Counted from the first letter of the stretch, positions 20,646 through 53,424 are shown. The stretch: 64,000 nucleotides of DNA from Limisphaerales bacterium (GCA_965657355.1 CBFHOE010000002.1:347856-411855); one strand, 5' to 3'. Translations and numbers: made by a program. The notes: a model not told the origin generated them from the letters alone.

Positions 20646-23231
20646 ATGGAATACAAATTTAATGAAATAGTTCGACAGGCAACGCCAGGTGATAATGTGG
20701 TGATTGCTTTATGTGATCTAAAACCAGGAGACGTAATAAAACATCAAAATGGAAAATCCATTACCATTAAATATTTCGTTCTCGAAGGACATCGCATTGC
20801 TTTCTCAGAAATAAAAACCGGCGAGAAGCTTCTCTCGTGGGGCTTGCCATTTGGTCTGGCTATTCATGATATTCTTCCTGGTGAGGCCCTTTTCAATGAT
20901 TCGGTATTGAGAGACCTCAAAAAAAGAAAACTCAATATATTCACTCCCAATAACCCAAATTTTAAAGACTGGTCACAAAAATTTATACTGGATCACTCAA
21001 ATATTGCTTACTCTGAACAAGTAAGAATAACCTATTGTGATCGCACTTTCCAAGGGTTTGAAAGACCTAATGGAAGAGGCTCTGGTATCAGAAACCATGT
21101 GGTTGTCCTCGGAACGTCATCTAGGGTAACGCCTTTTATAAAACTTTTATCAAAATCTCTCCCAAATGAATTCACCTGCCACACTAAATCATTCGATGGG
21201 GTGGTCACTGTTTACCACTCTGAAGGAGGCGGATTTAAAAAAGAAAACAACCATGAATTAGTTCTTCGCACTCTATCAGGCTGGATTGTTCATTCAAATA
21301 TTTCTTCTATCCTATTAATCGACCACGGCGATGAGGCCGTAAACAACAAGGAGGTTTTTGATTATTTAAAGATAAAACAATACCCTATTAAAGGATCGCT
21401 GATAAAAACTTTAAGTATTTCCAAAAGGCAAATTAGTAGCTGTTTGAATGAGGCGAGAAATTCCATCGGGCTGATGGTAGACAATGCACGGAAAGAGCAA
21501 AGAACGTCATGTCCACTATCGGATATAAAAATTGCTCTTCAATGCGGCGGTTCAGATGCTTTTTCTGGCATGTCGGGGAACCCATTGGCCGGAATCATTG
21601 CAAAAGAAGCAATCCAACATGGAGGTTCTGCTAATTTAGCTGAAACATCAGAACTTATAGGAGCTGAGTCGTATGTCCTACAAAAAGTAAAAAACCTTGA
21701 TGTTGCAAAACGTTTTTTAAACACCATAGATAGATTCCAATCAATGGCACAATGGCATGGCCATTCAGCAGAAGGCAACCCAAGCGGAGGAAATTTATTT
21801 AGAGGCCTTTACAATATTTCAGTTAAAAGCATCGGCGCAGCAAATAAAAAACATCCCGACCTCAGATTGGACGATGTTATTGATTACGGTCAACGTATGA
21901 CTGAGAGTGGTTTTTACTTCATGGATAGCGCCGGAAATGACCTGGAAAGTATTGCTGGACAAGTTGCTTCAGGATGCAACCTTGTTCTCTTCATTACAGG
22001 CAATGGTTCTATAACCAATTTCCCATTTGTTCCTACCTTAAAAATAGTGACAACCACTAAAAGGTATAAGCAGCTCGAATTGGATATGGATATCAATGCG
22101 GGTGAATATTTAGATGGCACGACATTATCAGCACTTAAAGGTAAATACTTTAATCTAGCACTAGAAACATGTGAAGGCAGGAGGACAGTTGGCGAGAAAG
22201 CAGGACATTCTCAAGCACAAATCTGGCGTAATTGGCACATGGGTTCGGAGAGGCAACTAACTTCAGCCCTTCAATCACCATCACCTTCTGGAGTTCCATT
22301 AAAACTTACATGGACAAGTGAATTGATCTCTCAAAAACCACAAAAAATAAAAATCACGGAATCGTTATCCAAAACTTTTCAAAAGTCGATTATTATCCCA
22401 ACAAGTTTGTGCTCGAGTGAGGTTGCTTCTAGAATTGCGAAGGAATTAAACGATGAATCGCAAAAAGAAAACATAGTGGCCTTGTCACATACAGAAGGAT
22501 GTGGTGTTTCTAGAGGGCCATCTGAAGAGCTTTTCATCCGAACGATGGTCGGATATGCCCTTCACCCATCGGTCAAATCCGTTCTTTTTTTAGAACATGG
22601 TTGTGAAAAGACACATCATGCGGAATTCCAGAATTTCTTACTTTCGATGAATGAGTGTCCAGACAATTATGCGTGGGAAAGCATCCAGGCTGGAGGCGGA
22701 TTAGAGAAAGCGAAAGCCAGTATCAGAAGTTGGAAAGCCAGCATTAAAAATTCTGATATTCATAATATTAATCATCCGGCTTTAGGTGTATTTACGACCT
22801 CCGGAAAACAAAGCGAAGGATGGATGATCCGCTTACTGCAGTTAGTTCAATTAGTCACGAATGATTTGAAAGGGAGTGTGATTATATCAGAAAAAGATCC
22901 ATTTATTGATTTCATTAAAACAAACAAAATCCTCAGTAATAATTCCCAGACTAGCTTGAGCTATGGCGAGAGCCTGAAAATGAGGTTCGGATTTCATATA
23001 ATGGAATCTCAATCAACAGATCCTGTGGAAATTCTAACAGGGTTGGGTGCTTGCGGTGCCACCCATTTTTTTATGGATCCAGATAGTCTTGAAAATAATT
23101 TCCAGTATCCACCACTTTCCATACCCGTTAAATGGGATCGAGCGACACAAGATTTTATTGAACAATTTAATGAAAGTCATTTCCAACGCTCTTTTCAAAT
23201 TACGCGCGGACACCAAGGGTTTTCGCTGTAG
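20646..23231 (+). CDS. UxaA/GarD-family (altronate dehydratase-like) protein, enlarged to 861 aa
   Basis: N-terminal SAF-like region, GIRNHVVVLGT, and C-domain blocks LQCGGSDAFSGMSGNPLAG, FYFMDSAGND and CNLVLFITGNGS. A second partial unit follows, with PTSLCS, HTEGCG and LEHGCE. Confidence 0.8.
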   Translation: MEYKFNEIVRQATPGDNVVIALCDLKPGDVIKHQNGKSITIKYFVLEGHRIAFSEIKTGEKLLSWGLPFGLAIHDILPGEALFNDSVLRDLKKRKLNIFTPNNPNFKDWSQKFILDHSNIAYSEQVRITYCDRTFQGFERPNGRGSGIRNHVVVLGTSSRVTPFIKLLSKSLPNEFTCHTKSFDGVVTVYHSEGGGFKKENNHELVLRTLSGWIVHSNISSILLIDHGDEAVNNKEVFDYLKIKQYPIKGSLIKTLSISKRQISSCLNEARNSIGLMVDNARKEQRTSCPLSDIKIALQCGGSDAFSGMSGNPLAGIIAKEAIQHGGSANLAETSELIGAESYVLQKVKNLDVAKRFLNTIDRFQSMAQWHGHSAEGNPSGGNLFRGLYNISVKSIGAANKKHPDLRLDDVIDYGQRMTESGFYFMDSAGNDLESIAGQVASGCNLVLFITGNGSITNFPFVPTLKIVTTTKRYKQLELDMDINAGEYLDGTTLSALKGKYFNLALETCEGRRTVGEKAGHSQAQIWRNWHMGSERQLTSALQSPSPSGVPLKLTWTSELISQKPQKIKITESLSKTFQKSIIIPTSLCSSEVASRIAKELNDESQKENIVALSHTEGCGVSRGPSEELFIRTMVGYALHPSVKSVLFLEHGCEKTHHAEFQNFLLSMNECPDNYAWESIQAGGGLEKAKASIRSWKASIKNSDIHNINHPALGVFTTSGKQSEGWMIRLLQLVQLVTNDLKGSVIISEKDPFIDFIKTNKILSNNSQTSLSYGESLKMRFGFHIMESQSTDPVEILTGLGACGATHFFMDPDSLENNFQYPPLSIPVKWDRATQDFIEQFNESHFQRSFQITRGHQGFSL

Positions 23232-23425
23232 AATCATGCTCTTCAATGGCAAATTCACGCGAAGCAACCATGCTGTTTACTCATTCAATTAATACGATGA
23301 AGTTTATGATATTTAACCCCTTCACGAGATCGCTAACCAACAATTTTATAACTCGGCCTACATTAATTCATATCAAAACAAATTGTCACTCTGGAGACCG
23401 TAAATTAGTCATTACTTATAATCGG

Positions 23426-26400
23426 CTAATTCCATTCAAAATGAGAAATTAGCCAATTAATATCATTCATTGTCATTTCGTTATTCACAATCTGGTTTTC
23501 ATACCTTTTCACCAAATCTATCCTTGCATTTTCCTTGGAGTAAGATGGTACCTGAGAACAATAATTATTTTTGATAAAAAATTCTTCAAGATCATGAGTT
23601 TTTGCCTCTCGCCATCCAGCAACCTCTTTATCTCTTAAACACCTAATCACAGATTCTCCGTCCCCGTTGCATCTGCATACTAATTCAGATAATTGGTTTA
23701 TAAATTTATCACTCACCGCTCCGGATTCGAACAAAACATTTTTATCTACTGGTTTTCCTCGGCCAATTTTCCAAATGTTAATACAACTCTCAAGAATTTG
23801 GGATTTAAGAGTTATCCTTTCCAGCTTTTCAATTGAAATTATGACGGTTTCCTGGTTCTCACTATATGCCCTAAACTGACCTAAGTTTGATATCCCGACC
23901 GTTAAGAAACAATAAAGCATTTCTAGGTCATCGACTATATACCAAATATGCACGGTGCCACCATCATCCCATGGGTCGATACCCGGGACACCGATTCGGT
24001 CGGCATATGAGGAATGGTCAAGCCCTATCGGCTTTGGAATATTCAAAGGTTTTGATTCTTCACGCCTTGGCAAAACTCTTTGAAGGTTTTGCGAACGGAT
24101 GGATTCTAAATCAAATGTCTGAAAGTCTAAACCCGACTGGTCTAAGTATTGAATCCACTTTGCTACTTCATCATCCTGGGCGGTGAAATAAAAAATTTGG
24201 CGTCCACTTTTCGCTATCTCGATGACGCTTTTAATCATCTTAGTTGCTCTCAAGTCATCACTCGTCCCCAGAGCCTCATCGAGTATCAATGGCAATTGAA
24301 AATTCTCATCCTGCTCAAGAAAAGCTACCCTTACAGCCATCAATAGCTGTACCTTTTCACCAACAGATAAGTTTTGAATAGGACTTATCTCTTTATTGCT
24401 AGATCTTCGAGCGAAAAATTCGGGTTTATCACCTGAATCTGATATTTCTAAAGCCAGTGTGTGATTGGTAAACTCACCAATTAATTGGTTGGCACGCCTG
24501 AATACCTTAGGTCTTGAACGATCCACTGTGACTCGCTTCAACCACTGAATCATCTCATAACCGACGAAGGTTTTTAACCCCTTCTGGCATTCACTTTCAA
24601 TTTCCATCTTGATATCTTCAAGATTGTTCAGAGCATGTTCCAAATTGTAAGATTGCTCCATTCTTTCAATATCTTTCTCAATACCAACAATTTCTCTATG
24701 TAAATTTTCCCTCTCCTCGATAATTGATTCTAATTTTTGTATATTCTTTTCGATTTCTTCAATTTCTAATTCATCTGGATTTAATTCAAAACGGTTATAT
24801 CTCTTGATAGTTTGAAGACGATCGTGGGCTAATGTGTTTAATTTACTCAAGCGCTCTTTTACCTCTTTGAATTCTGATAACTGGTTCATCCACGACTCTA
24901 ACTTCCCTTCTTCACCGCCCCGAATGGATAGCCGGTCAAATAGCTTCTGCTTTTCTCCGATCACGCTACTTAAAGATTCATCAATACGGGATAATTCGCT
25001 TTGAGCAGATTCTTTTTTCTTTAAGGCATCATGAAATTGATCAAATTGAGTTTCCAGATTATTGATTTTTTCAAGCGACTCGTTAGCATCATCGCATGCA
25101 TGTTCGCCATACCTTTGGAAAATTTGATTAAGCTCGTTTTTTATTTTAGTGATTCTATTTTCAATTTCTTTATGGGAAACTTTTTTTCCGGATAACCGGG
25201 AATGGAATTTCTGCCTCCTTGATAATTTTTCAAGCAAATAAGGAAGCCATCTGGTATCGATTTCTATGCACAGGCCAGTTTCTTTTCTCACCGACAGCAG
25301 TATAGATTCGACCTCCTTCTCTTTTTGAGTGAGTTTTTCATTTTCTTTTTCAATCTGTTTCTTGAGTTTAGCAAACTCTTCAATTTGATGCTTCTTTTTC
25401 AGTAGTTCCAGGTGATTTTGAATTAAACTGACAATGGTCTCATGGTTCCATGATTCAGGATCTGAAAAACCTAGCGAAGAATAATAATTTTTGTGGATAG
25501 ATTTCTCACTTCTCGAATTCCGGTCTATCTGTCTGGATGTATTTCTCCATTCTATAAATACTAATAATATGGATATACAGAATGGAACCCACCAAAAGCT
25601 ATTTGAAATAATCCCGAGATATCCAGTGGTGCCCGATACTCCCGCTGCCAAGACTATACAAACCCATGATATTTTATTTGTTTTTTTATTTCCCGAATCA
25701 CCTGAGGTTCCATTGGAAGAAAGCCACCGGCTTAATGTCGCCAACGCTTCATCATGTGGTTTATTTAATTGGTCTTGTTGAAAGTCATTACTCTGTGCCT
25801 CGACCCACGCCTCTTTAAGTTGAATGGATTCTCTCAAGGCATTTCTCTCATCCACTTTGTCAGCTAATCGGTTTAGGCCTGGGATCGGAATACAATTTAA
25901 ATCATCTAACTGGGTTTCTGAAAAATAATCACCGAGAAGTTTTGAAGCATTATCTAGTTCACCCTTTATTTCTATTAAACCCCGCTCAGATTCTTTCAGT
26001 AACCCTTCATATTCTTTAAGACTTTGATTTAATCCCTTCAATTTAAACAAATCTCCTTTATCAAGGGAACCAGTGATTTCGGGGTATTTCTTTATGGTTT
26101 CGACTGCTAGATCGTATTTGGATTGTTCCTGAGCTTGTCTTTCTTCAAGTTTGTCTATTTTAGTTTGAAAGCTGTCTAATTGGTTTTTCTCGTTCCCATG
26201 GAGCAAAGATAACTGGTCTGGAAATTTTTCAAGTTCGTTTTGCGTAATGAGGATTTTGTTTTGGATCGCCTTTAATTCCAAGACCGCCCTCAAGTATTTG
26301 ACCTCTTCCGAATATTGTTGGGTGCTTTGGTATTTTCTTTTGAGTGAATTAAGATTTTGGGCTTTACGCCCTAAGTCATTTTGTTTTTCCCTGGCAGATC

Positions 26401-26917
26401 TTACGTCTGATCTCCTGGAATTATATTTCTTTTTTAATAAATTCTTTTGGCCAATAGGTTTATCAAAATTCAGTTTTTCAGCTGCTGAAGGCAAATCAAA
26501 TCCGCCTTGGCTTGCCGCCGAAATAACACGGGCAAACTCTAAATTCCTTGTTCCCTCTTGTAACAGATCATGCAAGGATAGATGATACTTCCCCTTTAAT
26601 TCTTTGGCACCTAACGAAGGGAGCGAATCTTCTTGACCATTTTTTAGATATTGAATGTTTCCAGGTTCCAATCGAGCTGACCAACCATCTTCAGCGATAC
26701 TCAACTGACCATCAATCGACCTTTTTTTATCACCACAGGACTGAGGCCACATTATTTCTTGCAAAGCCGAGGCCGTCGTACTTTTTCCTGAAGCATTAGG
26801 GCCAAAAATTATATTGATACCCTTTGAAAACCCATCGAGTGAGTATGCATCTTTGCCTTTAATGCCGTGGAGCTGATGGATGTGAATTGACTTAATATGT
26901 AAAGGAGTCCCGCTCAT
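23426..26917 (-). CDS. SMC/Rad50-like AAA ATPase (SbcC/YhaN-like) with central hydrophobic hairpin and C-terminal extension
   Basis: Walker A GPNASGKST, long K/E/L-rich coiled coils, hydrophobic stretch ISWVCIVLAAGVSGTTGYLGIISNSFWWVPFCISILLVFIEW, signature LSVGEKVQL and Walker B LPLILDEA. Confidence 0.85.
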   Translation of the reverse strand: MSGTPLHIKSIHIHQLHGIKGKDAYSLDGFSKGINIIFGPNASGKSTTASALQEIMWPQSCGDKKRSIDGQLSIAEDGWSARLEPGNIQYLKNGQEDSLPSLGAKELKGKYHLSLHDLLQEGTRNLEFARVISAASQGGFDLPSAAEKLNFDKPIGQKNLLKKKYNSRRSDVRSAREKQNDLGRKAQNLNSLKRKYQSTQQYSEEVKYLRAVLELKAIQNKILITQNELEKFPDQLSLLHGNEKNQLDSFQTKIDKLEERQAQEQSKYDLAVETIKKYPEITGSLDKGDLFKLKGLNQSLKEYEGLLKESERGLIEIKGELDNASKLLGDYFSETQLDDLNCIPIPGLNRLADKVDERNALRESIQLKEAWVEAQSNDFQQDQLNKPHDEALATLSRWLSSNGTSGDSGNKKTNKISWVCIVLAAGVSGTTGYLGIISNSFWWVPFCISILLVFIEWRNTSRQIDRNSRSEKSIHKNYYSSLGFSDPESWNHETIVSLIQNHLELLKKKHQIEEFAKLKKQIEKENEKLTQKEKEVESILLSVRKETGLCIEIDTRWLPYLLEKLSRRQKFHSRLSGKKVSHKEIENRITKIKNELNQIFQRYGEHACDDANESLEKINNLETQFDQFHDALKKKESAQSELSRIDESLSSVIGEKQKLFDRLSIRGGEEGKLESWMNQLSEFKEVKERLSKLNTLAHDRLQTIKRYNRFELNPDELEIEEIEKNIQKLESIIEERENLHREIVGIEKDIERMEQSYNLEHALNNLEDIKMEIESECQKGLKTFVGYEMIQWLKRVTVDRSRPKVFRRANQLIGEFTNHTLALEISDSGDKPEFFARRSSNKEISPIQNLSVGEKVQLLMAVRVAFLEQDENFQLPLILDEALGTSDDLRATKMIKSVIEIAKSGRQIFYFTAQDDEVAKWIQYLDQSGLDFQTFDLESIRSQNLQRVLPRREESKPLNIPKPIGLDHSSYADRIGVPGIDPWDDGGTVHIWYIVDDLEMLYCFLTVGISNLGQFRAYSENQETVIISIEKLERITLKSQILESCINIWKIGRGKPVDKNVLFESGAVSDKFINQLSELVCRCNGDGESVIRCLRDKEVAGWREAKTHDLEEFFIKNNYCSQVPSYSKENARIDLVKRYENQIVNNEMTMNDINWLISHFEWN

Positions 26918-28203
26918 ATACCCTGCTGCCTAATCAACTCTGAAATTAAAGCGACAGCGTTCTCTCTTACTATTTCAAGTATCCTGCCATCCTTGATGCT
27001 GTTGTGTTCGACATTACTAATACCCAATCTCTGTTCTACGCATGTGCTCTTCTGGTAGAGCATTTCTATGAGCTTACGCGTCGATGTTTCAATTTTATCC
27101 TCGTCTATTTGATTTATCACTCGCGCGAGTTCGCCAACCGCCGAATTGCTTTCGAGCAAACTTGCAAAATCTACAGAGGGTTGAGTTTTATTTTTTGCCG
27201 CTTCGATAAAAATATGAACATCTTCACATTGGTCCTCAAGATCAGGCAAACGTTCGATATTTTTTTGAATTCCATCATAAAGTGGGGTCTCCCCGGTAAT
27301 CGTAATTCTAAAGTTAATCTGCCTTAGATGCTCAACATTACTTTCCACTAAATATCGAGACCTTTTTGAAATGACCTGCATGAAATAGGAGTCAACAGAC
27401 TCAATGCTATCAATATTTTTTACATCGATCTCAAGCTGGTCGTATATAATTGTCGAAATAGGATAAAACTGAGGGAAGCTGAATCCACCTTTTGATATTT
27501 CTGTAATCCACACGCCATGATCTCCCGTTTCTCCAGGATCCAATGCCTGAGGTGAACCTGGGTATAATACCCATGGGTGGGACTCACTTTTGATCAATTG
27601 AGATTTATGAATATGGCCCAAATGCCAACCACTAACTACCGATGACTCAATCTGGGATTTATTTATTGGGGCGTAGGGAGACTTTGGATTACCCAAGTCT
27701 CCATGCACTATACCAAGAACAGGTATATCATGGCTCTCTAAAGTCTTATTTGGATAGGATTCCAGTGGGTCTCCGGCATAATATCTTTCGGGAAAAGACC
27801 ACCCATCCACATGAAGTAGTGGAACCTCATCGACGGCATGAGTATATCTCTCCCATTTCCCTCCTTTGCCGATGACCTTGAAGCAATCATCAGGCAACTC
27901 TCCTGCAAGCTTAGGCAATACGTCGAAATCATGATTTCCAGAAACTGCTATAGTTTTTATCCCAGCGTCAGCGAGTCGATTCAAGCCCATTTTCAGAGGT
28001 CCAATTGCCTCAAAAAATTTATTTTCCTGATCAGCCACGTCTCCCCCCAGGCAAACAAGAGTTACTTTTTGCTCAATCGCGAGATTGACAATTCTCAACC
28101 ATGCATCAGCGGCTCTGAATTGTCCTGAGCCCGCCTTGTCTCCTACCCGGGTAGAGGACCGACCGATATGTAGATCACTTGTTAGAAGAATACGATGGAT
28201 CAC
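26914..28203 (-). CDS. Mre11/SbcD-like metallophosphoesterase (YhaO-like DNA exonuclease), GTG start
   Basis: Calcineurin-like motifs SDLHIG, GGDVADQ, SGNHD, VHGD and GHIH. Its stop overlaps the downstream ATPase start (ATGA at 26914-26917). Confidence 0.85.
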   Translation of the reverse strand: MIHRILLTSDLHIGRSSTRVGDKAGSGQFRAADAWLRIVNLAIEQKVTLVCLGGDVADQENKFFEAIGPLKMGLNRLADAGIKTIAVSGNHDFDVLPKLAGELPDDCFKVIGKGGKWERYTHAVDEVPLLHVDGWSFPERYYAGDPLESYPNKTLESHDIPVLGIVHGDLGNPKSPYAPINKSQIESSVVSGWHLGHIHKSQLIKSESHPWVLYPGSPQALDPGETGDHGVWITEISKGGFSFPQFYPISTIIYDQLEIDVKNIDSIESVDSYFMQVISKRSRYLVESNVEHLRQINFRITITGETPLYDGIQKNIERLPDLEDQCEDVHIFIEAAKNKTQPSVDFASLLESNSAVGELARVINQIDEDKIETSTRKLIEMLYQKSTCVEQRLGISNVEHNSIKDGRILEIVRENAVALISELIRQQGI

Positions 28204-28265
28204 ACTAAGCTAATCAATTGATACAAAATACAAGTTTCGGAAATTACAAAGCAAAACGTGAATAC

Positions 28266-29504
28266 CTAGCTTGTTAATTGTGAATTTCCCTTCGCTCTAT
28301 AAACTAAGACAATAGAAATTATTGCAGCTAAAAGTATGAATCCAGCAAATCCAGGGCGAACAAATATCCATGAGACGCCGATCGTGAATAAAGAAAGGGC
28401 CATTGCGAGAAAAAATGTAACAAAAGCTACAGCTCCCTCTAACATGCGTCCTGCAAATGGAATAAAACTCACTATGGCTCTGAGTGGCTTCAAAATCATG
28501 ACCAAACCAAGCCACATAGCCAAAAAGCCACCACCTCGGAACCCCCATCTTTTAAGAGCTGCCTCGAACCTTTGAGCATCAATCACTTCTTCCTTCGATT
28601 TTTTTCCCATGTAGAGTAACTCCTTGCTAATATTATTTTCCGTTTGATAGGGAAGAAAAGATTGCCCGGATTGTCGGGCCATAATTGTGACCTCTTTTTT
28701 TGGTGGAACGATAAAGACCTTAACTCGCTCGTCTCCAATCTGAGGCGAGGTCGGATTATTTGAGTAAAAGACACCATCACTAACACTTCCCCCGGGATAC
28801 AAATCAGACACTAAGCCTGAATCTATATTGTATTTCTGCTCTCCCTTTATTTTTTTTATCAGGGACGGAGGTAGCTTGAATGCCCCAAACATGACGTTTG
28901 ATGCAAAGATATTACCACCTGAAAACTTCTTATTACTTCCATGGTTGGAGTGGCGTCCCCCTTCTTGACCACCACTGTTAAAACTAGAGGAATCTTGGAC
29001 GCGATCCACCCATTTTTTTGAATAACTATAAACTCTTCTGTCATTTTCAGTTTTAGAGCTTTCAACCCATTGATAAATTTCTGCTTCCCAAAATACCCGA
29101 ATGGCATTCTCTTTTATCCCGAACTCTTTAAATTCAAGAACATCCTGAGAAATGGCTTCGTATGCAGTATGAATTAATTTCCCATCATAATCAGGATTGA
29201 TTGTTTGGGCACTCACATCGGCAATGGCGACATCTTCTAGCTCAGCTATAGCAGCTTTTTGTCTTGTCGCGTCTTTTTCATTCCAACCTAATAAGACAAA
29301 GGATCCGACAAAAAGGCCTATTCCGAATACTGCAGCGGCAAAAGATCCGATAACCCTTCCAAAATAGCTATTTCTTCTTGCACTAGCCATAACTCGTTCA
29401 TTTGAACAAAAAACACTGTTAATATCAACTCTCGTTATTTGCAGTAAAAGTTCTTTGTAAATTCCAGTTTTCATTAAAAACGATAATTCTTGTTCATAAT
29501 GCAT
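28266..29504 (-). CDS. TMEM43/DUF1625-like membrane protein (alternative start at 29390)
   Basis: N-terminal TM (FAAAVFGIGLFVGSFVLLGWNEKD), a soluble middle region and about three C-terminal TM helices. This architecture is typical of the TMEM43 family. The assignment comes from architecture plus the GWNE motif only. Confidence 0.55.
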   Translation of the reverse strand: MHYEQELSFLMKTGIYKELLLQITRVDINSVFCSNERVMASARRNSYFGRVIGSFAAAVFGIGLFVGSFVLLGWNEKDATRQKAAIAELEDVAIADVSAQTINPDYDGKLIHTAYEAISQDVLEFKEFGIKENAIRVFWEAEIYQWVESSKTENDRRVYSYSKKWVDRVQDSSSFNSGGQEGGRHSNHGSNKKFSGGNIFASNVMFGAFKLPPSLIKKIKGEQKYNIDSGLVSDLYPGGSVSDGVFYSNNPTSPQIGDERVKVFIVPPKKEVTIMARQSGQSFLPYQTENNISKELLYMGKKSKEEVIDAQRFEAALKRWGFRGGGFLAMWLGLVMILKPLRAIVSFIPFAGRMLEGAVAFVTFFLAMALSLFTIGVSWIFVRPGFAGFILLAAIISIVLVYRAKGNSQLTS

Positions 29505-29527
29505 GGGAAGCGTTTTAATAAAGAGCT

Positions 29528-30343
29528 ATGAGATTTGGTTTTAGAAATTCACATAAATTTTGTGGATTTACGCTGATTGAACTACTTGTGGTCATTGCTA
29601 TTATTGCCATCCTTGCTTCAATGATCTTACCCGCTCTCGGTCGGGCAAAAGGAAAGGCAAAAGGTTTAAAATGTTTAAACAATGTGAAACAGCTCGGCCT
29701 TTCTTCAGCTATGTATGTCAACGATCACGGAGCGACTCTCCCATACGTTGGTTTCAGGGATCTATGGATGAGGCGTCTATTGGATTATTATGCAGAAGTA
29801 GACAAAATAAGAGTTTGCCCGTCTGCCCCTGAAAAAGAGAATATCAATCAAAGAAGGCACAGTGTTAGCGGTAGTCTAGATGAAACCTGGGGGTGGAATG
29901 GAGAGAACCGAAAACGATACGAGGGAAGTTACGCATTAAACGGATGGATGTATTCAGGAGATTGGCCTGCAGGATGGGGTATCAGAAGCTCATTTGCTTT
30001 TAGAAAAGAAGGCGAAATAAAACGCCCAGCACTAACCCCAACCCTTGCAGACTCCATTTGGGTGGATGCCTGGCCAGATTGGAGAGACAGGCCTGCTAGA
30101 AACCTATACACAGGAGACGATTTTAGCAGCCCTGGAATGGCACGGGTTGCTATCCCTAGACACGGTGGCGTACCTAGAAACCGAAAAGCCCTATCCAACT
30201 GGCCTAGCAAAGAACGGTTACCAGGAGCTGTTAATATTACTTTTGCCGATGCTCACGCAGAATTAATACCTCTAGAAAAACTTTGGAGTCTTCAATGGCA
30301 CAAAGAATTCAGAAGGAGAGCTTCTAGGTTTTTAAGAAATTGA
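29528..30343 (+). CDS. Prepilin-type N-terminal cleavage/methylation domain protein (H-X9-DG-like)
   Basis: [26 protein letters not shown]-terminus and C-terminal FADAHAE...KLWSLQWH. Confidence 0.85.
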
Positions 30344-30515: not shown

Positions 30516-31340
30516 TTATTCAATTCTTGAAGGTCTACTAGGACGATACCCTTTATGCCACCGCAGAGCCCAAAGTTTTCGGAGCCTGGACGAATCTGTA
30601 TGCCCGTCTATAAACCCAACGTTTGATTTTCCTAAATGTCTATCGACAACAAATCTGCCCATAAAATACCCCCTACGGTGTGGGTATCCTCCATTCCCGT
30701 ATCCTATACCAGTTTGATCTTTTGGCATACGGTCTCGGCTTTCTGGCCAAGAACCAACCCAAATGGAATCAGCAAAAACCGGGGAATCGGGGGAAGCCTC
30801 ATGAACCTTTGAAAAGTAATATTTACTTGGAAAATCGTCCTTGTATCGTCCTTCATCATCAAACCAAAGATTCATACCAAAACTCCCCTCACCCTCAAAG
30901 CTTCTCCATGAATTTTTGTCTGTCCCCCACCAGCGATCAGATTTTAAAGGTCTTGTTTTGGGTCGCCTTGTCTCAGGGCAAAATGAAATTTTCATAACAC
31001 CGGAAATATGGTCGGTTGGATCAAACTTATATTTTCTGTCTCCAATATATGGAGCTATTTGATGAAACCAATAATATCCAACCTTATGAACAACTGGCGG
31101 CCCCTTTTCTTTATTGTCATCCGCGTATAGTTGAAAACCCAAAGTCATTTGCTTTAAGTTGTTACGGCATAATATTGATTTAGCGGTTCTTTTTGCTCTT
31201 GCCAAAGCAGGCAACAGCATACTTGAGATGATCGCAATTATGGCAATCACAACCAATAATTCAATTAAGGAGAAACCTTTGTGAGTTCTCTTGAAATCCA
31301 TGCGAATAGTCCGTGTTACAGTGGATGCAAACCCATACAA
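30516..31340 (-). CDS. Prepilin-type N-terminal cleavage/methylation domain protein (H-X9-DG-like), paralogue of 29528-30343
   Basis: [26 protein letters not shown]-terminus and C-terminal FIDGHTD...KLWALRWH. Confidence 0.85.
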   Translation of the reverse strand: MYGFASTVTRTIRMDFKRTHKGFSLIELLVVIAIIAIISSMLLPALARAKRTAKSILCRNNLKQMTLGFQLYADDNKEKGPPVVHKVGYYWFHQIAPYIGDRKYKFDPTDHISGVMKISFCPETRRPKTRPLKSDRWWGTDKNSWRSFEGEGSFGMNLWFDDEGRYKDDFPSKYYFSKVHEASPDSPVFADSIWVGSWPESRDRMPKDQTGIGYGNGGYPHRRGYFMGRFVVDRHLGKSNVGFIDGHTDSSRLRKLWALRWHKGYRPSRPSRIE

Positions 31341-51406: not shown

Positions 51407-52723
51407 TTACTCCGGTTTCCCCCATTCGTATGTGGGTGAATATCCAACATCCCAATTGTGATCGAATCGTCTTCGAGTAGTTTTACCGAAAAACCTCCAT
51501 TCAGCGAACTCAAGCATGGCGTTCCAATCTTCCTCCAAATTTTCATGGTCGCCAGCTCGAATATGCAACCCGATATTTCCGGGAACACCCAGGAACCTGT
51601 AGACGTGTCTTGCGGATTCGAAAGCCGCTTGGCTCCCGAGGGGGTTTGCCCACCTGTCCTCTTCTGCCTCGGTGGATATGAGAAGCCGGGGTGCCACAAG
51701 AGCATGCAACCAATGCTGATCAAAAGGGAGGTTTTCTGTGCGGCCGCCGAAACGGTGGAAGTCCTTATGAAACCATGAAGCAAATCGTTGCGTACTACTG
51801 ATTGATGCCAAGGTTTCCGCACCAGGGTTTCTGACCCTAAATACGCTCGCACCTCCAGTGCCAGAGCCATTAGGAGCAACCATGGCAAATCTCTCATCCA
51901 TGGCACCAGCAAGCAATGCAGCCTTTCCCATGCGTGAATGACCGCGGACAATCACACACTCCGTCTGAGCGTCGTCTCGGGTTTCGAGATAATCCATCAC
52001 GCGGCTGGCACTCCACGCCCACACCGCTAGCGCCCCCCAATCATAAGCCGGGTATGCAAGTTGGGCAGGACCAACAACGTCTTTTCCTTCCAGGTCGGGA
52101 TCCAGGTCGAGTTCTGGCGAGCACGTCATCATCATAAATCCACGGTCCAGAGCTAATTTTGCTTTCGAAGAATCATCACCGATGTTTACAACGACAGGGA
52201 ATGGCCCGTCCCCAGCTGGCCGGTAAACATTAACTGACATCTCTAAAGAGTGTCCTATACCGCTATTGAGAGCCAATTTGACAAGTATGATCTCTCCCCC
52301 CTGCCAAGCTTTTCGAGAAATGACTCTCGCGGACCAGTCATCGGGAGCTGGCGGCATACGGCCGTATTCATACTCAAGCAGAATATCCTTTATCTCAAGA
52401 CGCCTAGCCGCCCACTCCTTTTGATCGCGAACACGCTGCCCATTAGCAAAGAGAAAAGGATCAGGAAGCTCTTTCATTTCTGGTAAGTCTTCCACTGAGT
52501 GAACCACCAATTGTGGCTTCACAGAACCAGGGTTACGACACCCTAAAATAAATATTAACGAAAAAAGGAGACAATAAATTAACGATTTCAGCTCACCCGG
52601 ACGATACCCTGGAGCCCTCGAATTTCTCTTTCTGAATAATAAACGGAATGGGCAGAGAACCGAATGTAAATCATATGATTCAGTATCCGCGTCCGATTTT
52701 TCTGTATGAAGGCACTCTTTCAT
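51407..52723 (-). CDS. Alpha/beta-hydrolase, glucuronoyl esterase (CE15)-like lipoprotein; true start probably downstream of 52723
   Basis: GHSRMGKAAL nucleophile-elbow block resembles the CE15 G-x-S-R-x-G motif. Lipobox ILGC. Confidence 0.6.
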   Translation of the reverse strand: MKECLHTEKSDADTESYDLHSVLCPFRLLFRKRNSRAPGYRPGELKSLIYCLLFSLIFILGCRNPGSVKPQLVVHSVEDLPEMKELPDPFLFANGQRVRDQKEWAARRLEIKDILLEYEYGRMPPAPDDWSARVISRKAWQGGEIILVKLALNSGIGHSLEMSVNVYRPAGDGPFPVVVNIGDDSSKAKLALDRGFMMMTCSPELDLDPDLEGKDVVGPAQLAYPAYDWGALAVWAWSASRVMDYLETRDDAQTECVIVRGHSRMGKAALLAGAMDERFAMVAPNGSGTGGASVFRVRNPGAETLASISSTQRFASWFHKDFHRFGGRTENLPFDQHWLHALVAPRLLISTEAEEDRWANPLGSQAAFESARHVYRFLGVPGNIGLHIRAGDHENLEEDWNAMLEFAEWRFFGKTTRRRFDHNWDVGYSPTYEWGKPE

Positions 52724-53067
52724 ATTACTGATCGTATGTCTTGCAGGCTACCTGATTTACTAACTTCATCACGAATTTCATCCACCATTATTTTAAAATA
52801 ATTATGGTTTATCTCATTTCAGAAAGTTCAGGCCAAAATAAATCCTCGGTGCCCCCTTGGAATATTTTCTGATCTCATTCTTTACAATGCTTGATTTTAA
52901 AGAAACAACCATGGATTTATTTTGATTTGAAGTAATACCAACTGTTCTCTTTCGATCTAAAGTGGACATATGCTAAGAGATCCCGAAAGAAAAACGGATA
53001 AAATTTCATTCATGAATTTTAGAATGAGTCGGACATCATCGTGCCCTGGTTTGGGAACTCAGGGTAT

Positions 53068-53424
53068 TGGTGGAGGCGGGGGGAGTTGAACCCCCGTCCT
53101 TGGTTAAACGAATCAGAGACCTCTACATGCTTAGTCGGGAATTGCTAATCCTGGTGACATACTTCCCGACAGGCCGGCACCCGGATTTGTCCGCATGAAA
53201 AGATTCGGCATTGGGCGCGCGGTCCCCGCTTTGAGCCTAACCGACTAATCGTCGTCCAAATACACTAGTCGGTGTCGAGTATTGGACGTCGTGGCATTAA
53301 TTAAGCCGCGAGAGCGTATTCTTCGTTAGCAGTTATTGCTTGAACCGATGATTAACGAGGCCAACGGCTCATCCTCGACATGCAATCAAAGATCAATCCA
53401 ACAAGTCGAAACCATTTCGCCCCC
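53068..53424 (-). ncRNA. ssrA: tmRNA (transfer-messenger RNA)
   Basis: The minus strand reads 5' GGGGGCGAAATGGTTTCGAC ... GGACGGGGGTTCAACTCCCCCCGCCTCCACCA 3', 357 nt in total. The internal tag ORF is GCU AAC GAA GAA UAC GCU CUC GCG GCU UAA (ANEEYALAA). Confidence 0.9.

What the first reader, a model, noticed from the sequence alone, without database searches (positions are those of the whole stretch)
23426..29504. Membrane-associated Rad50/Mre11-like three-gene module (TMEM43-like protein, SbcD/YhaO-like nuclease, 1163-aa SbcC/YhaN-like ATPase)
Seen: three co-oriented minus-strand genes. 28266-29504 encodes a protein with one N-terminal and about three C-terminal hydrophobic helices, which I read as TMEM43/DUF1625-like. 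A GTG-initiated phosphoesterase follows 62 nt downstream and carries all Mre11/SbcD motifs (SDLHIG, GGDVAD, SGNHD, VHGD, GHIH). Its TGA overlaps the ATG of the ATPase (ATGA at 26914-26917). The ATPase has Walker A GPNASGKST, about 800 aa of coiled coil, signature LSVGEKVQL and Walker B LPLILDEA. Established: the nuclease/ATPase pair resembles the poorly understood Bacillus YhaO/YhaN (SbcF/SbcE) second Rad50/Mre11-type machine. Inference: the combination of a dedicated membrane protein, a nuclease and a membrane-inserted SMC-like ATPase with an extra C-terminal domain could form a membrane-tethered DNA-end sensor or processor. Possible roles are anti-phage or anti-plasmid defence, or surveillance of incoming DNA, rather than plain repair. 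I know of no named defence system with this composition.
Basis: partly seen in the sequence, partly recalled or inferred. Interest (0 to 1): 0.8.

Follow-up and report, generated by a model that had tools for sequence, protein, structure and literature searches.

The report
Membrane-anchored Mre11/Rad50-like nuclease pair
Two of the three genes form a widespread but unstudied DNA-end-cutting machine of the Mre11/Rad50 type, whose long arm apparently ends in a membrane anchor instead of the usual zinc hook, while the third gene (TMEM43-like) is just a neighbour.

Summary
The conserved unit is two genes, not three. An SbcD/Mre11-type nuclease (26914-28203) is translationally coupled to a 1163-aa Rad50/SMC-like ABC ATPase (23426-26917).

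The pair recurs in about 50-60 loci from many bacterial phyla and on 11 haloarchaeal plasmids. The TMEM43-like gene accompanies it only in the window and its closest relative. A syntenic relative (L067) has the TMEM43 gene without the pair.

The ATPase family is large: 2,691 clusters at E<=1e-30, and the best 150 are near full length (148 of 150). It has three defining features:
- a hydrophobic hairpin at the coiled-coil apex (158/158 members) and no CxxC zinc hook;
- T-A-Q or a close variant (T-A-R, S-A-Q) where ABC ATPases have the H-loop T/S-His;
- a confidently modelled all-helical, acidic C-terminal domain with no structural or Pfam match.

It fails the Pfam YhaN model (17 bits against 232 for a true YhaN protein) and all SbcC/Rad50 models, so it is a sister family, not YhaN or ordinary SbcCD. 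Neighbourhoods show no recurrent defence genes, and no viral copies were found. A defence role is neither supported nor excluded.

Verdict: a new variant of a known kind, of moderate interest.

The parts
26914..28203 (-). SbcD/Mre11-type metallophosphoesterase nuclease, 429 aa, GTG start. The catalytic core is about residues 4-230. The C-terminal approx. 200 aa are poorly conserved except for a patch near residues 341-360.
   Evidence: Pfam Metallophos E=1.8e-9. NCBIfam SbcD subfamily E=1.6e-9, below cut-off. PDB sequence match to Thermotoga Mre11/SbcD E=2.6e-5. Motif I-V residues are >=98% conserved in 52 homologues. A homologue lies immediately upstream of the ATPase in essentially every locus with upstream sequence.
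23426..26917 (-). Rad50/SMC-like coiled-coil ABC ATPase, 1163 aa, translationally coupled to the nuclease through a 4-nt ATGA overlap.
   Evidence: The full-length AF2 model has pLDDT 79, with head, antiparallel coiled-coil arms (159-400 and 492-816), apex helices and a C-terminal domain. Foldseek PDB hits are Smc5/6, condensin, Rad50, MukB and JetC at E 1e-15 to 1e-9. The best PDB sequence match to the family profile is P. furiosus Rad50, E=6.4e-10.
26780..26803 (-). Walker A / P-loop GPNASGKS (residues 39-46).
   Evidence: G39, N41, G44 and K45 are invariant in alignment A1. The G.N..GK[ST] pattern was tallied over 158 members, and the commonest forms are GPNASGKT/S.
25517..25675 (-). Apex hydrophobic hairpin: two predicted helices (415-437 and 440-467) flanked by basic residues and by the conserved motifs LxxWL (395-399) and PxxW (487-490). 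It is read as a membrane anchor that replaces the Rad50 zinc hook.
   Evidence: Hydropathy scans: 40/40 full-length homologues from loci and 158/158 diverse representatives have it at the same relative position. None of the 158 has CxxC there. AF2 places two helices here with pLDDT of only 62-69. L395 is invariant and W398, P487 and W490 are nearly invariant.
24329..24370 (-). ABC signature region LSVGEKVQLLMAVR (residues 850-863).
   Evidence: S851, Q857 and R863 are invariant. The region aligns with the signature region of P. furiosus Rad50.
24272..24295 (-). Walker B LPLILDEA (residues 875-882), with the catalytic Glu881.
   Evidence: P876, D880 and E881 are invariant. The P-h-h-h-D-E pattern is present in 148 of 158 members.
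24176..24205 (-). H-loop-equivalent strand GRQIFYFTAQ (residues 905-914). The canonical T/S-His is replaced by T-A-Q.
   Evidence: R906, Q907 and Y910 are invariant in A1, and T912 is nearly invariant. G905, F909, F911, T912 and Q914 are invariant in the closer subset A2. T-A-Q is found in 134/158 members, S-A-Q in 5 and T-A-R in 9; no T-H form appears among the listed variants. hhalign places FTAQ opposite FTHH of a true YhaN family protein.
23429..24070 (-). Family-specific C-terminal domain (residues 950-1163): all-alpha, about 11 helices, net acidic, with invariant G1052-R1053 (the GRG[RK]P motif).
   Evidence: AF2 pLDDT 91.8, pTM 0.83. No Foldseek match in the PDB (best E 0.83, TM<0.2) or in BFVD (best E 0.29). 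No Pfam hit at E<=1. A profile search finds it only as two short-contig fragments outside full-length family members. Net charge is 0 to -22 across the 18 aligned members, 17 of them negative.
28266..29504 (-). TMEM43/DUF1625-family membrane protein. It is an adjacent resident gene, NOT part of the conserved module. It has one N-terminal TM, a large loop domain and three C-terminal TMs. Its likely true start is Met39, near 29390.
   Evidence: PF07787 E=1.5e-55. TM scan. It is absent from all other loci carrying the pair. It is present without the pair in the syntenic L067 and in L068-L070.

Best explanation
The functional unit is a two-gene operon that encodes an Mre11/Rad50-type ATP-dependent nuclease complex of a distinct, widespread and uncharacterised family.

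The SbcD/Mre11-like phosphoesterase supplies the nuclease activity. Its partner is a coiled-coil ABC ATPase whose two head lobes would engage on ATP binding to clamp DNA, as in Rad50/SbcC. This mechanism is inferred from homology.

Instead of a CxxC zinc hook, the apex of the roughly 35-nm coiled coil carries a conserved hydrophobic helical hairpin flanked by Trp and basic residues. The most economical reading is a transmembrane hairpin. It would tether the complex to the cytoplasmic membrane, probably dimerise it there, and leave the heads and nuclease in the cytoplasm. This step is also inferred.

Two further family-specific features suggest altered regulation. The H-loop histidine is replaced by Ala-Gln, so ATP hydrolysis is probably slow or differently gated. 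An acidic all-helical C-terminal domain of unknown fold follows the head. It is likely a regulatory or partner-binding module rather than a DNA binder.

The most likely role is processing of DNA ends or hairpins close to the membrane, a second Rad50-like repair or DNA-intake pathway analogous to Bacillus SbcEF.

The TMEM43-like gene upstream is a lineage-specific neighbour. Its promoter may drive the pair by read-through, but it is not a component.
For: Pair conservation: a nuclease homologue sits immediately upstream of the ATPase in about 50 loci from Acidobacteriota, Chloroflexia, Bacteroidota, Planctomycetota, Gemmatimonadota, Myxococcota, Gammaproteobacteria and other groups. The exact 4-nt overlap occurs in 25 of 50 loci. 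The pair is also on 11 haloarchaeal plasmids, where PGAP calls it 'DNA repair exonuclease' plus 'SMC/AAA family ATPase'.

No third conserved gene: clustering of neighbours gives at most 4 loci per cluster, and Pfam gives at most 3 of 129 neighbours per family.

TMEM43 is independent.

Rad50-class identity. The catalytic residues are conserved in both proteins.

Apex hairpin universal and zinc hook absent.

H-loop substitution.

Novel C-terminal domain.

Precedent: B. subtilis SbcE has a unique, hydrophobic, insoluble central domain, lacks CxxC, pairs with the SbcD-like YhaO, and acts in DSB repair and transformation with polar foci (PMC2811018).
Against: Membrane insertion rests only on hydropathy and flanking residues. 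AF2 confidence at the apex is modest (pLDDT 62-69), and the hairpin could instead be a buried hydrophobic dimerisation core.

There are no expression, localisation or phenotype data for any family member. Loss of the H-loop His might mean the ATPase is a poor hydrolase, so the Rad50 mechanism may not transfer directly.

Some features fit a conflict system better than housekeeping repair. These are the patchy, cross-domain distribution, the presence/absence polymorphism at a syntenic site and faster divergence than the flanking genes.
Confidence: 0.6

Rival explanations
1. The two-gene pair is a stand-alone anti-phage or anti-plasmid immune system. In this reading it is a membrane-tethered DNA-end sensor and nuclease that attacks linear DNA as it enters the cell by injection, conjugation or transformation.
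For: The distribution is sporadic across many phyla and across domains, including haloarchaeal plasmids. The pair is present or absent at an otherwise syntenic site (L001 against L067). It diverges faster (51-56% identity) than the flanking genes (66-89%). Haloarchaeal plasmid neighbourhoods contain DEAD/DEAH helicases, an RNase H-like protein, DUF3883 and nucleotidyltransferase genes. The coiled-coil ABC ATPase plus nuclease composition recalls Lamassu, Wadjet, PARIS and Gabija, and there are weak LmuB, AriA and JetC hits.
Against: There is no significant match to any PADLOC system. Among 129 immediate neighbours in 33 bacterial loci, no defence family recurs (at most 2 members, helicase and methyltransferase type), and the commonest Pfam families are housekeeping. 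No copy was found in IMG/VR viral contigs or GenBank phages. No integrase or transposase flanks the pair in the window. The window is ordinary chromosome carrying a tmRNA gene.
Confidence: 0.25
2. One reading: a dedicated three-gene module in which the TMEM43-like membrane protein partners the nuclease/ATPase pair.
For: The three genes are co-oriented. The 62-nt gap has no terminator-like hairpin. The arrangement is kept in the nearest relative, L001. Both TMEM43 and the ATPase are predicted membrane proteins.
Against: No TMEM43 homologue lies next to the pair in any of the other roughly 50 loci. L067 has the same N_methyl / TMEM43 / Usp / cadherin synteny as L001 but no pair, with TMEM43 ending 6 nt from the convergent Usp gene. 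Three more TMEM43 orthologues (48-57% identity) sit in unrelated contexts without the pair. TMEM43 diverges at the rate of the flanks, not of the pair.
Confidence: 0.05
3. The pair is ordinary SbcCD, or a bona fide YhaO/YhaN (SbcF/SbcE) orthologue, doing standard hairpin and DSB processing.
For: Both proteins have Rad50/SbcD-like motifs. One family member is labelled 'YhaN' by JGI. AAA_27 is the Pfam family hit most often, in 13 of 19 members, but weakly.
Against: There is no CxxC hook in any of 158 members. Scores are far below the curated cut-offs of the SbcC, Rad50 and SbcD models. AAA_27 gives 16.9-19.9 bits against a cut-off of 22, and 232 bits for a true YhaN family protein. That protein also lacks the hairpin and the C-terminal domain and keeps the T-H-H H-loop.
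Confidence: 0.1

Closest known systems
Bacillus subtilis SbcF/SbcE (YhaO/YhaN), Krishnamurthy et al. 2010, PMC2811018
   Same: An SbcD-like nuclease gene lies immediately upstream of an SMC-like ATPase. The ATPase lacks the CxxC zinc hook and instead has a 'unique central domain' whose first half is hydrophobic and insoluble, with a conserved proline. This parallels the apex hairpin and conserved PxxW found here. The operon logic and presumed DNA-end processing are the same.
   Different: The window ATPase fails the Pfam YhaN N-domain model (16.9 bits against a cut-off of 22, and 232 bits for a named YhaN protein). It carries an extra 210-aa C-terminal domain and has T-A-Q in place of the H-loop His, which the YhaN family protein compared here keeps as T-H-H. 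I could not obtain the B. subtilis sequence itself, so the comparison of central domains rests on the paper's description.
Canonical Mre11-Rad50 / SbcCD
   Same: It has a metallophosphoesterase nuclease with all Mre11 motifs, plus a coiled-coil ABC ATPase. The best sequence match to a solved structure is P. furiosus Rad50. The structural match covers Rad50 and SMC heads and arms. The two genes are translationally coupled.
   Different: There is no zinc hook, and a hydrophobic hairpin occupies the apex. The H-loop His is absent. A C-terminal domain is added. All curated SbcC, SbcD, Rad50 and Mre11 models score far below their cut-offs.
Proteobacterial 'YhaN family protein' plus 'DNA repair exonuclease' (e.g. 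Sphingomonas paucimobilis plasmid, WP_197939295.1)
   Same: The two-gene layout has overlapping stop and start codons, and the ATPase is of similar length (1154 aa). The C-lobe is homologous (hhalign probability 98%).
   Different: It has no hydrophobic segment at all and no C-terminal domain, since its ATPase C-lobe ends the protein. It gives a full AAA_27 match and has a canonical T-H-H H-loop.
SMC-like defence systems (Lamassu LmuB, Wadjet JetC, PARIS AriA, Gabija)
   Same: A coiled-coil or ABC ATPase is coupled to a nuclease effector. There are weak profile hits to LmuB, JetC and AriA through the P-loop and coiled coil.
   Different: No model reaches a convincing score. The effector here is an Mre11-type phosphoesterase rather than a Cap4, TOPRIM or JetD-type nuclease. 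There are no kleisin/KITE partners and no defence-island context in bacteria.
Eukaryotic TMEM43/LUMA family (PF07787)
   Same: The upstream gene is a clear member, with a full-length Pfam match at E=1.5e-55 and the 1+3 TM topology. Bacterial homologues are already annotated as 'TMEM43 family protein'.
   Different: It is unrelated to the nuclease/ATPase module. Bacterial TMEM43 proteins have no known function.

Membership tests
YhaN/SbcE family (Pfam PF13514 AAA_27; PGAP 'YhaN family protein') | Full-length match to the AAA_27 N-terminal head domain above the gathering score (22 bits) | tested here: not met
   The query scores 16.9 bits over profile positions 24-51 only. A haloarchaeal family member scores 19.9 bits. 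A PGAP-named YhaN family protein scores 232 bits over positions 1-206.
YhaN/SbcE family | SbcD-like nuclease gene (yhaO type) immediately upstream | tested here: met
YhaN/SbcE family | Non-zinc-hook central domain with a hydrophobic first half (PMC2811018) | tested here: inconclusive
   A hydrophobic hairpin is present and CxxC is absent. Homology of the central domains could not be tested because no Firmicute YhaN sequence was available. The proteobacterial YhaN protein examined has no hydrophobic segment.
Canonical Rad50/SbcC | CxxC zinc hook at the coiled-coil apex | tested here: not met
   None of 158 members has CxxC in the central third.
Canonical Rad50/SbcC | Score above the curated cut-off of the NCBIfam Rad50 or Pfam SbcC_Walker_B/SMC_N models | tested here: not met
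   NF003034 gives 20 bits against 700, and SMC_N gives 13 bits against 40.
Canonical Rad50/SbcC | ABC head with Walker A, signature, Walker B D-E and H-loop His | tested here: not met
   Walker A, the signature Ser/Gln and Walker B D-E are invariant. The H-loop His is replaced by Ala-Gln or Ala-Arg in 148 of 158 members: T-A-Q 134, S-A-Q 5, T-A-R 9.
Mre11/SbcD nuclease family | Phosphoesterase motifs I-V with the metal-binding Asp, His and Asn residues | tested here: met
   D10, H12, D55, N90, H91, H167, H197 and H199 are >=98% conserved in 52 members. Pfam Metallophos is above its cut-off.
Mre11/SbcD nuclease family | Score above the curated SbcD/Mre11 equivalog or subfamily cut-offs | tested here: not met
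   TIGR00619 gives 38 bits against 77.65, and the other models fall far below their cut-offs.
TMEM43 (PF07787), upstream gene only | Full-length Pfam match above the gathering score, with the 1+3 TM topology | tested here: met
   188.7 bits against 23.3, covering profile positions 1-250 of 250. TM scan.
Known anti-phage systems (PADLOC-DB v2) | Significant match of the components to a system's models, and co-location of that system's genes | tested here: not met
   Only weak partial hits from the ATPase to LmuB, JetC and AriA (best E=5.5e-8 over the coiled coil). Nothing for the nuclease or TMEM43.
Archaea-specific SMC-related proteins (ASRP, NF045487) | Score above the cut-off (300 bits) | tested here: not met
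   39 bits for the window ATPase, matching over the coiled-coil region 499-897; 44 bits for the haloarchaeal member, matching residues 29-273.

The most novel reading that the evidence does not exclude
The pair is a new class of Rad50-like machine in which the zinc hook has been replaced by a transmembrane hairpin. The nuclease head would hang from the inner membrane on a roughly 35-nm tether and police DNA as it crosses or touches the membrane, whether by phage injection, conjugation or natural transformation. In this reading it works as a self-contained two-gene immune or DNA-intake gatekeeper, with the acidic C-terminal domain as an autoinhibitory or sensor module.
Probability: 0.25. Interest if true: 0.8.

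Novelty: new variant of a known kind. Interest (0 to 1): 0.55.

Why it matters
Rad50/SbcC complexes are thought to need apex dimerisation through the zinc hook to sense and clamp DNA ends. This family has thousands of members across many bacterial phyla and on haloarchaeal plasmids. It replaces the hook with what looks like a membrane anchor, changes the catalytic H-loop and adds a domain of unknown fold. That makes it a natural experiment on how the Rad50 architecture works.

It would also give a molecular explanation for the never-explained 'hydrophobic central domain' and polar localisation of Bacillus SbcE. It makes one question directly testable: do bacteria have a membrane-tethered DNA-end processor for repair, DNA uptake or immunity? 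At present the family has no Pfam or NCBIfam model and no literature.

Tried and rejected
- The search for related loci with the 19-sequence alignment failed for lack of a conserved stretch. It was rerun with a 10-sequence subset.
- The exact window ATPase is not in the gene-position index, so the organism could not be named.
- The cluster look-up gave no names.
- The promoter/terminator scan of 23000-30000 found nothing above the shuffled expectation. The 62-nt TMEM43-nuclease gap folds no better than shuffles (z=-0.24) and is barely conserved against L001. Co-transcription can therefore be neither shown nor excluded.
- Foldseek of the C-terminal domain against the PDB and BFVD gave no meaningful hit.
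- A profile search for the domain in other architectures found only two contig fragments.
- The scan of IMG/VR viral contigs and the tblastn of GenBank phages found no family member.
- Literature searches for a membrane-anchored Rad50 or SMC-like protein found nothing beyond the 2010 SbcE paper. The Krishnan et al. 2020 ABC-ATPase classification is not held, so I cannot exclude that it names this clade.
- A 562-aa gene upstream of the pair on two haloarchaeal plasmids was considered as a possible partner. It is shared only by those two closely related plasmids (95% identity) and is absent elsewhere.
- The ASRP, LmuB and JetC hits were rejected as coiled-coil or P-loop noise.


Full report
OBSERVATION. 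They are the ATPase at 23426-26917 (1163 aa), the nuclease at 26914-28203 (429 aa, GTG start) and the TMEM43-like protein at 28266-29504 (412 aa). The nuclease stop and the ATPase start overlap by 4 nt. The TMEM43 stop and the nuclease GTG are 62 nt apart. Pfam confirms TMEM43 (PF07787, E=1.5e-55, full-length profile match) and a calcineurin-like phosphoesterase (E=1.8e-9). The ATPase gives only sub-threshold P-loop hits to AAA_27, AAA_29 and SMC_N. A hydropathy scan gives a 1+3 arrangement of hydrophobic helices in TMEM43, none in the nuclease, and a central hydrophobic stretch in the ATPase.

WHAT THE CONSERVED UNIT IS. A word-indexed search found 19 full-length homologues of the ATPase, 1080-1202 aa long. 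An exhaustive profile search then showed the family is large: 17,849 hits at E<=1e-3 and 2,691 at E<=1e-30. Of the best 150 representatives, 148 match nearly the whole profile, and all 150 score at least 990 bits.

A scan of one genome per species returned 63 loci. They come from Acidobacteriota, Chloroflexia, Bacteroidota (Bacteroidales, Balneolaceae and other groups), Planctomycetota, Lentisphaeria, Kiritimatiellia, Gemmatimonadota, Myxococcota, Elusimicrobia, Gammaproteobacteria (Wenzhouxiangella, Arhodomonas) and a haloarchaeon. In six-frame ORFs of these loci, a homologue of the window nuclease lies immediately upstream of the ATPase wherever upstream sequence exists. The gap is exactly -4 nt in 25 of 50 loci, and most other values are artefacts of longest-ORF start choice.

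By contrast, a TMEM43 homologue is found only in the window and in L001/L002, which are one organism with an ATPase 51% identical to the window's. Clustering all ORFs within 5 kb of the pair finds no other recurrent neighbour, with at most 4 loci per cluster. Pfam on 129 immediate neighbours gives at most 3 members per family.

TMEM43 IS A RESIDENT NEIGHBOUR. L067 carries a TMEM43 orthologue (55% identity) in the same synteny as L001. The order is a 630-aa Metallophos gene, N_methyl genes, TMEM43, then convergent Usp and cadherin genes. TMEM43 there is followed after 6 nt by Usp, and there is no nuclease or ATPase. Three further orthologues (48-57% identity) sit in unrelated contexts without the pair. 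Between the window and L001, the flanking genes are 66-89% identical and TMEM43 is 76%, but the nuclease is 56% and the ATPase 51%. The pair is therefore an indel next to a pre-existing gene. The gap has no terminator, so read-through transcription is possible but untested.

ANATOMY OF THE ATPASE. Alignment A1 shows these invariant residues:
- Walker A: G39, N41, G44, K45.
- Signature region: S851, Q857, R863.
- Walker B: P876, D880, E881.
- A block GRQIFYFTAQ (905-914).

The full-length AF2 model (pLDDT 79) shows an ABC head and coiled-coil arms at 159-400 and 492-816. It also shows two apex helices (415-437 and 440-467, pLDDT 62-69), a disordered linker (944-957) and a C-terminal helical domain. 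Foldseek matches Smc5/6, condensin, Rad50, MukB and JetC at E 1e-15 to 1e-9. By sequence profile the closest solved relative is P. furiosus Rad50, E=6.4e-10, over both lobes.

Three features define the family.
1. All 40 full-length proteins from loci, and 158 of 158 diverse representatives, have the central hydrophobic segment. None has CxxC there. The hairpin is bracketed by the conserved LxxWL and PxxW motifs and by Lys/Arg on both sides, as expected for a hairpin whose two ends both face the cytoplasm. That last point is my inference.
2. Where ABC ATPases have T/S-His, this family has T-A-Q in 134 of 158 members, S-A-Q in 5 and T-A-R in 9. hhalign puts FTAQ opposite FTHH of a genuine YhaN protein.
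3. Residues 950-1163 form a confidently predicted all-alpha domain (pLDDT 91.8). It has no Foldseek match in the PDB or BFVD and no Pfam hit. It has an invariant Gly-Arg, a net charge of 0 to -22 (17 of 18 members negative), and does not occur outside this family apart from two contig fragments.

THE NUCLEASE. All Mre11/SbcD metal-binding residues are >=98% conserved in 52 members. The closest solved sequences are Thermotoga Mre11/SbcD. It is below the curated cut-offs of the SbcD and Mre11 models.

COMPARISON WITH KNOWN FAMILIES. The pair is not ordinary SbcCD: it has no hook and all its scores are sub-threshold. It is not YhaN by the Pfam definition either. A PGAP 'YhaN family protein' from a Sphingomonas plasmid, with its own upstream 'DNA repair exonuclease', scores 232 bits on AAA_27, against 16.9-19.9 bits for this family. 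That protein shares only the C-lobe with this family (hhalign 98%). It has no hydrophobic segment, ends at the ATPase C-lobe and keeps the H-loop His.

The functional analogy with B. subtilis SbcEF is nevertheless strong. The 2010 paper describes a unique central domain whose first half is hydrophobic and insoluble, absence of CxxC, the SbcD-like YhaO upstream, roles in DSB repair and transformation, and polar foci in competent cells (PMC2811018). The paper does not mention membrane insertion. I found no later work on it.

REPAIR OR DEFENCE? Evidence against defence:
- There is no PADLOC system match.
- No defence family recurs among bacterial neighbours.
- Housekeeping families dominate the neighbourhoods.
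- No viral or phage copies were found.
- The window is ordinary chromosome with a tmRNA gene.

Evidence for defence:
- The distribution is patchy and crosses domains, with 11 haloarchaeal plasmids.
- There is indel polymorphism at a syntenic site.
- The pair diverges faster than its flanks.
- Haloarchaeal plasmid neighbourhoods are rich in helicase, RNase H-like, DUF3883 and nucleotidyltransferase genes.

I rate membrane-proximal DNA-end processing of the SbcEF type as most likely (0.6 for the architecture and mechanism package). A dedicated immune role gets 0.25.

VERDICT. The real entity is a two-gene, apparently membrane-anchored Mre11/Rad50-like module. It belongs to a large, unnamed sister family of SbcCD and YhaON, which makes it a new variant of a known kind. 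The TMEM43 link and the YhaN assignment are rejected. Interest is 0.55.

Noticed in passing
window 53068-53424 (-): A tmRNA (ssrA) gene: Rfam RF00023 at 164 bits, with tag peptide ANEEYALAA. ARAGORN also reports a second, overlapping 'tmRNA*' at 52629-53163. It overlaps the ORF at 51407-52723 and is probably a false permuted call.
   Followed up: partly
window 29390-29504 (-): The 412-aa TMEM43 ORF starts only 24 nt from the divergently transcribed gene at 29528. The L001 orthologue is 378 aa and aligns from about Met39. The true start is therefore probably near 29390, which leaves a divergent promoter region of about 138 nt.
   Followed up: partly
window 29528-30343 (+) and 30516-31340 (-): Two paralogous prepilin-type N-terminal methylation (N_methyl) proteins of 271 and 274 aa. 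Their L001 orthologues cross-match at 34-38% identity. They are conserved next to TMEM43 in L001 and L067. Together with the PSCyt/DUF1501-type genes seen in relatives, they point to a PVC-group genome.
   Followed up: no
L024; H1-H11 (haloarchaeal plasmids); L008, L009, L029, L037, L038, L045, L050, L056: The family is conspicuously frequent in halophiles. These include Haloarchaea (mostly on plasmids), Balneolaceae, Rhodothermaceae, Cyclonatronaceae, Wenzhouxiangella and Arhodomonas. This suggests cross-domain horizontal transfer within saline habitats.
   Followed up: partly
L001 13510-17277, compared with window 23232-23425: Between the ATPase and the GD_AH dehydratase gene, L001 carries three extra genes (Usp, a 906-aa cadherin-repeat protein and a 304-aa protein). 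The window lacks them, so this chromosomal spot is indel-prone in the lineage.
   Followed up: no
L072 762-6556 and L075 1-2404: On the Haloarcula and Halosimplex plasmids, the same two large genes lie upstream of the pair: an ATP-binding protein of about 1285 aa and a 562-aa hypothetical protein that is 95% identical between the two plasmids. They are not found next to the pair in any other locus examined.
   Followed up: yes
L071 6405-7259: The Sphingomonas plasmid YhaN-family/exonuclease pair is followed by a GIY-YIG nuclease family gene. It may be relevant to how true YhaN systems work.
   Followed up: no
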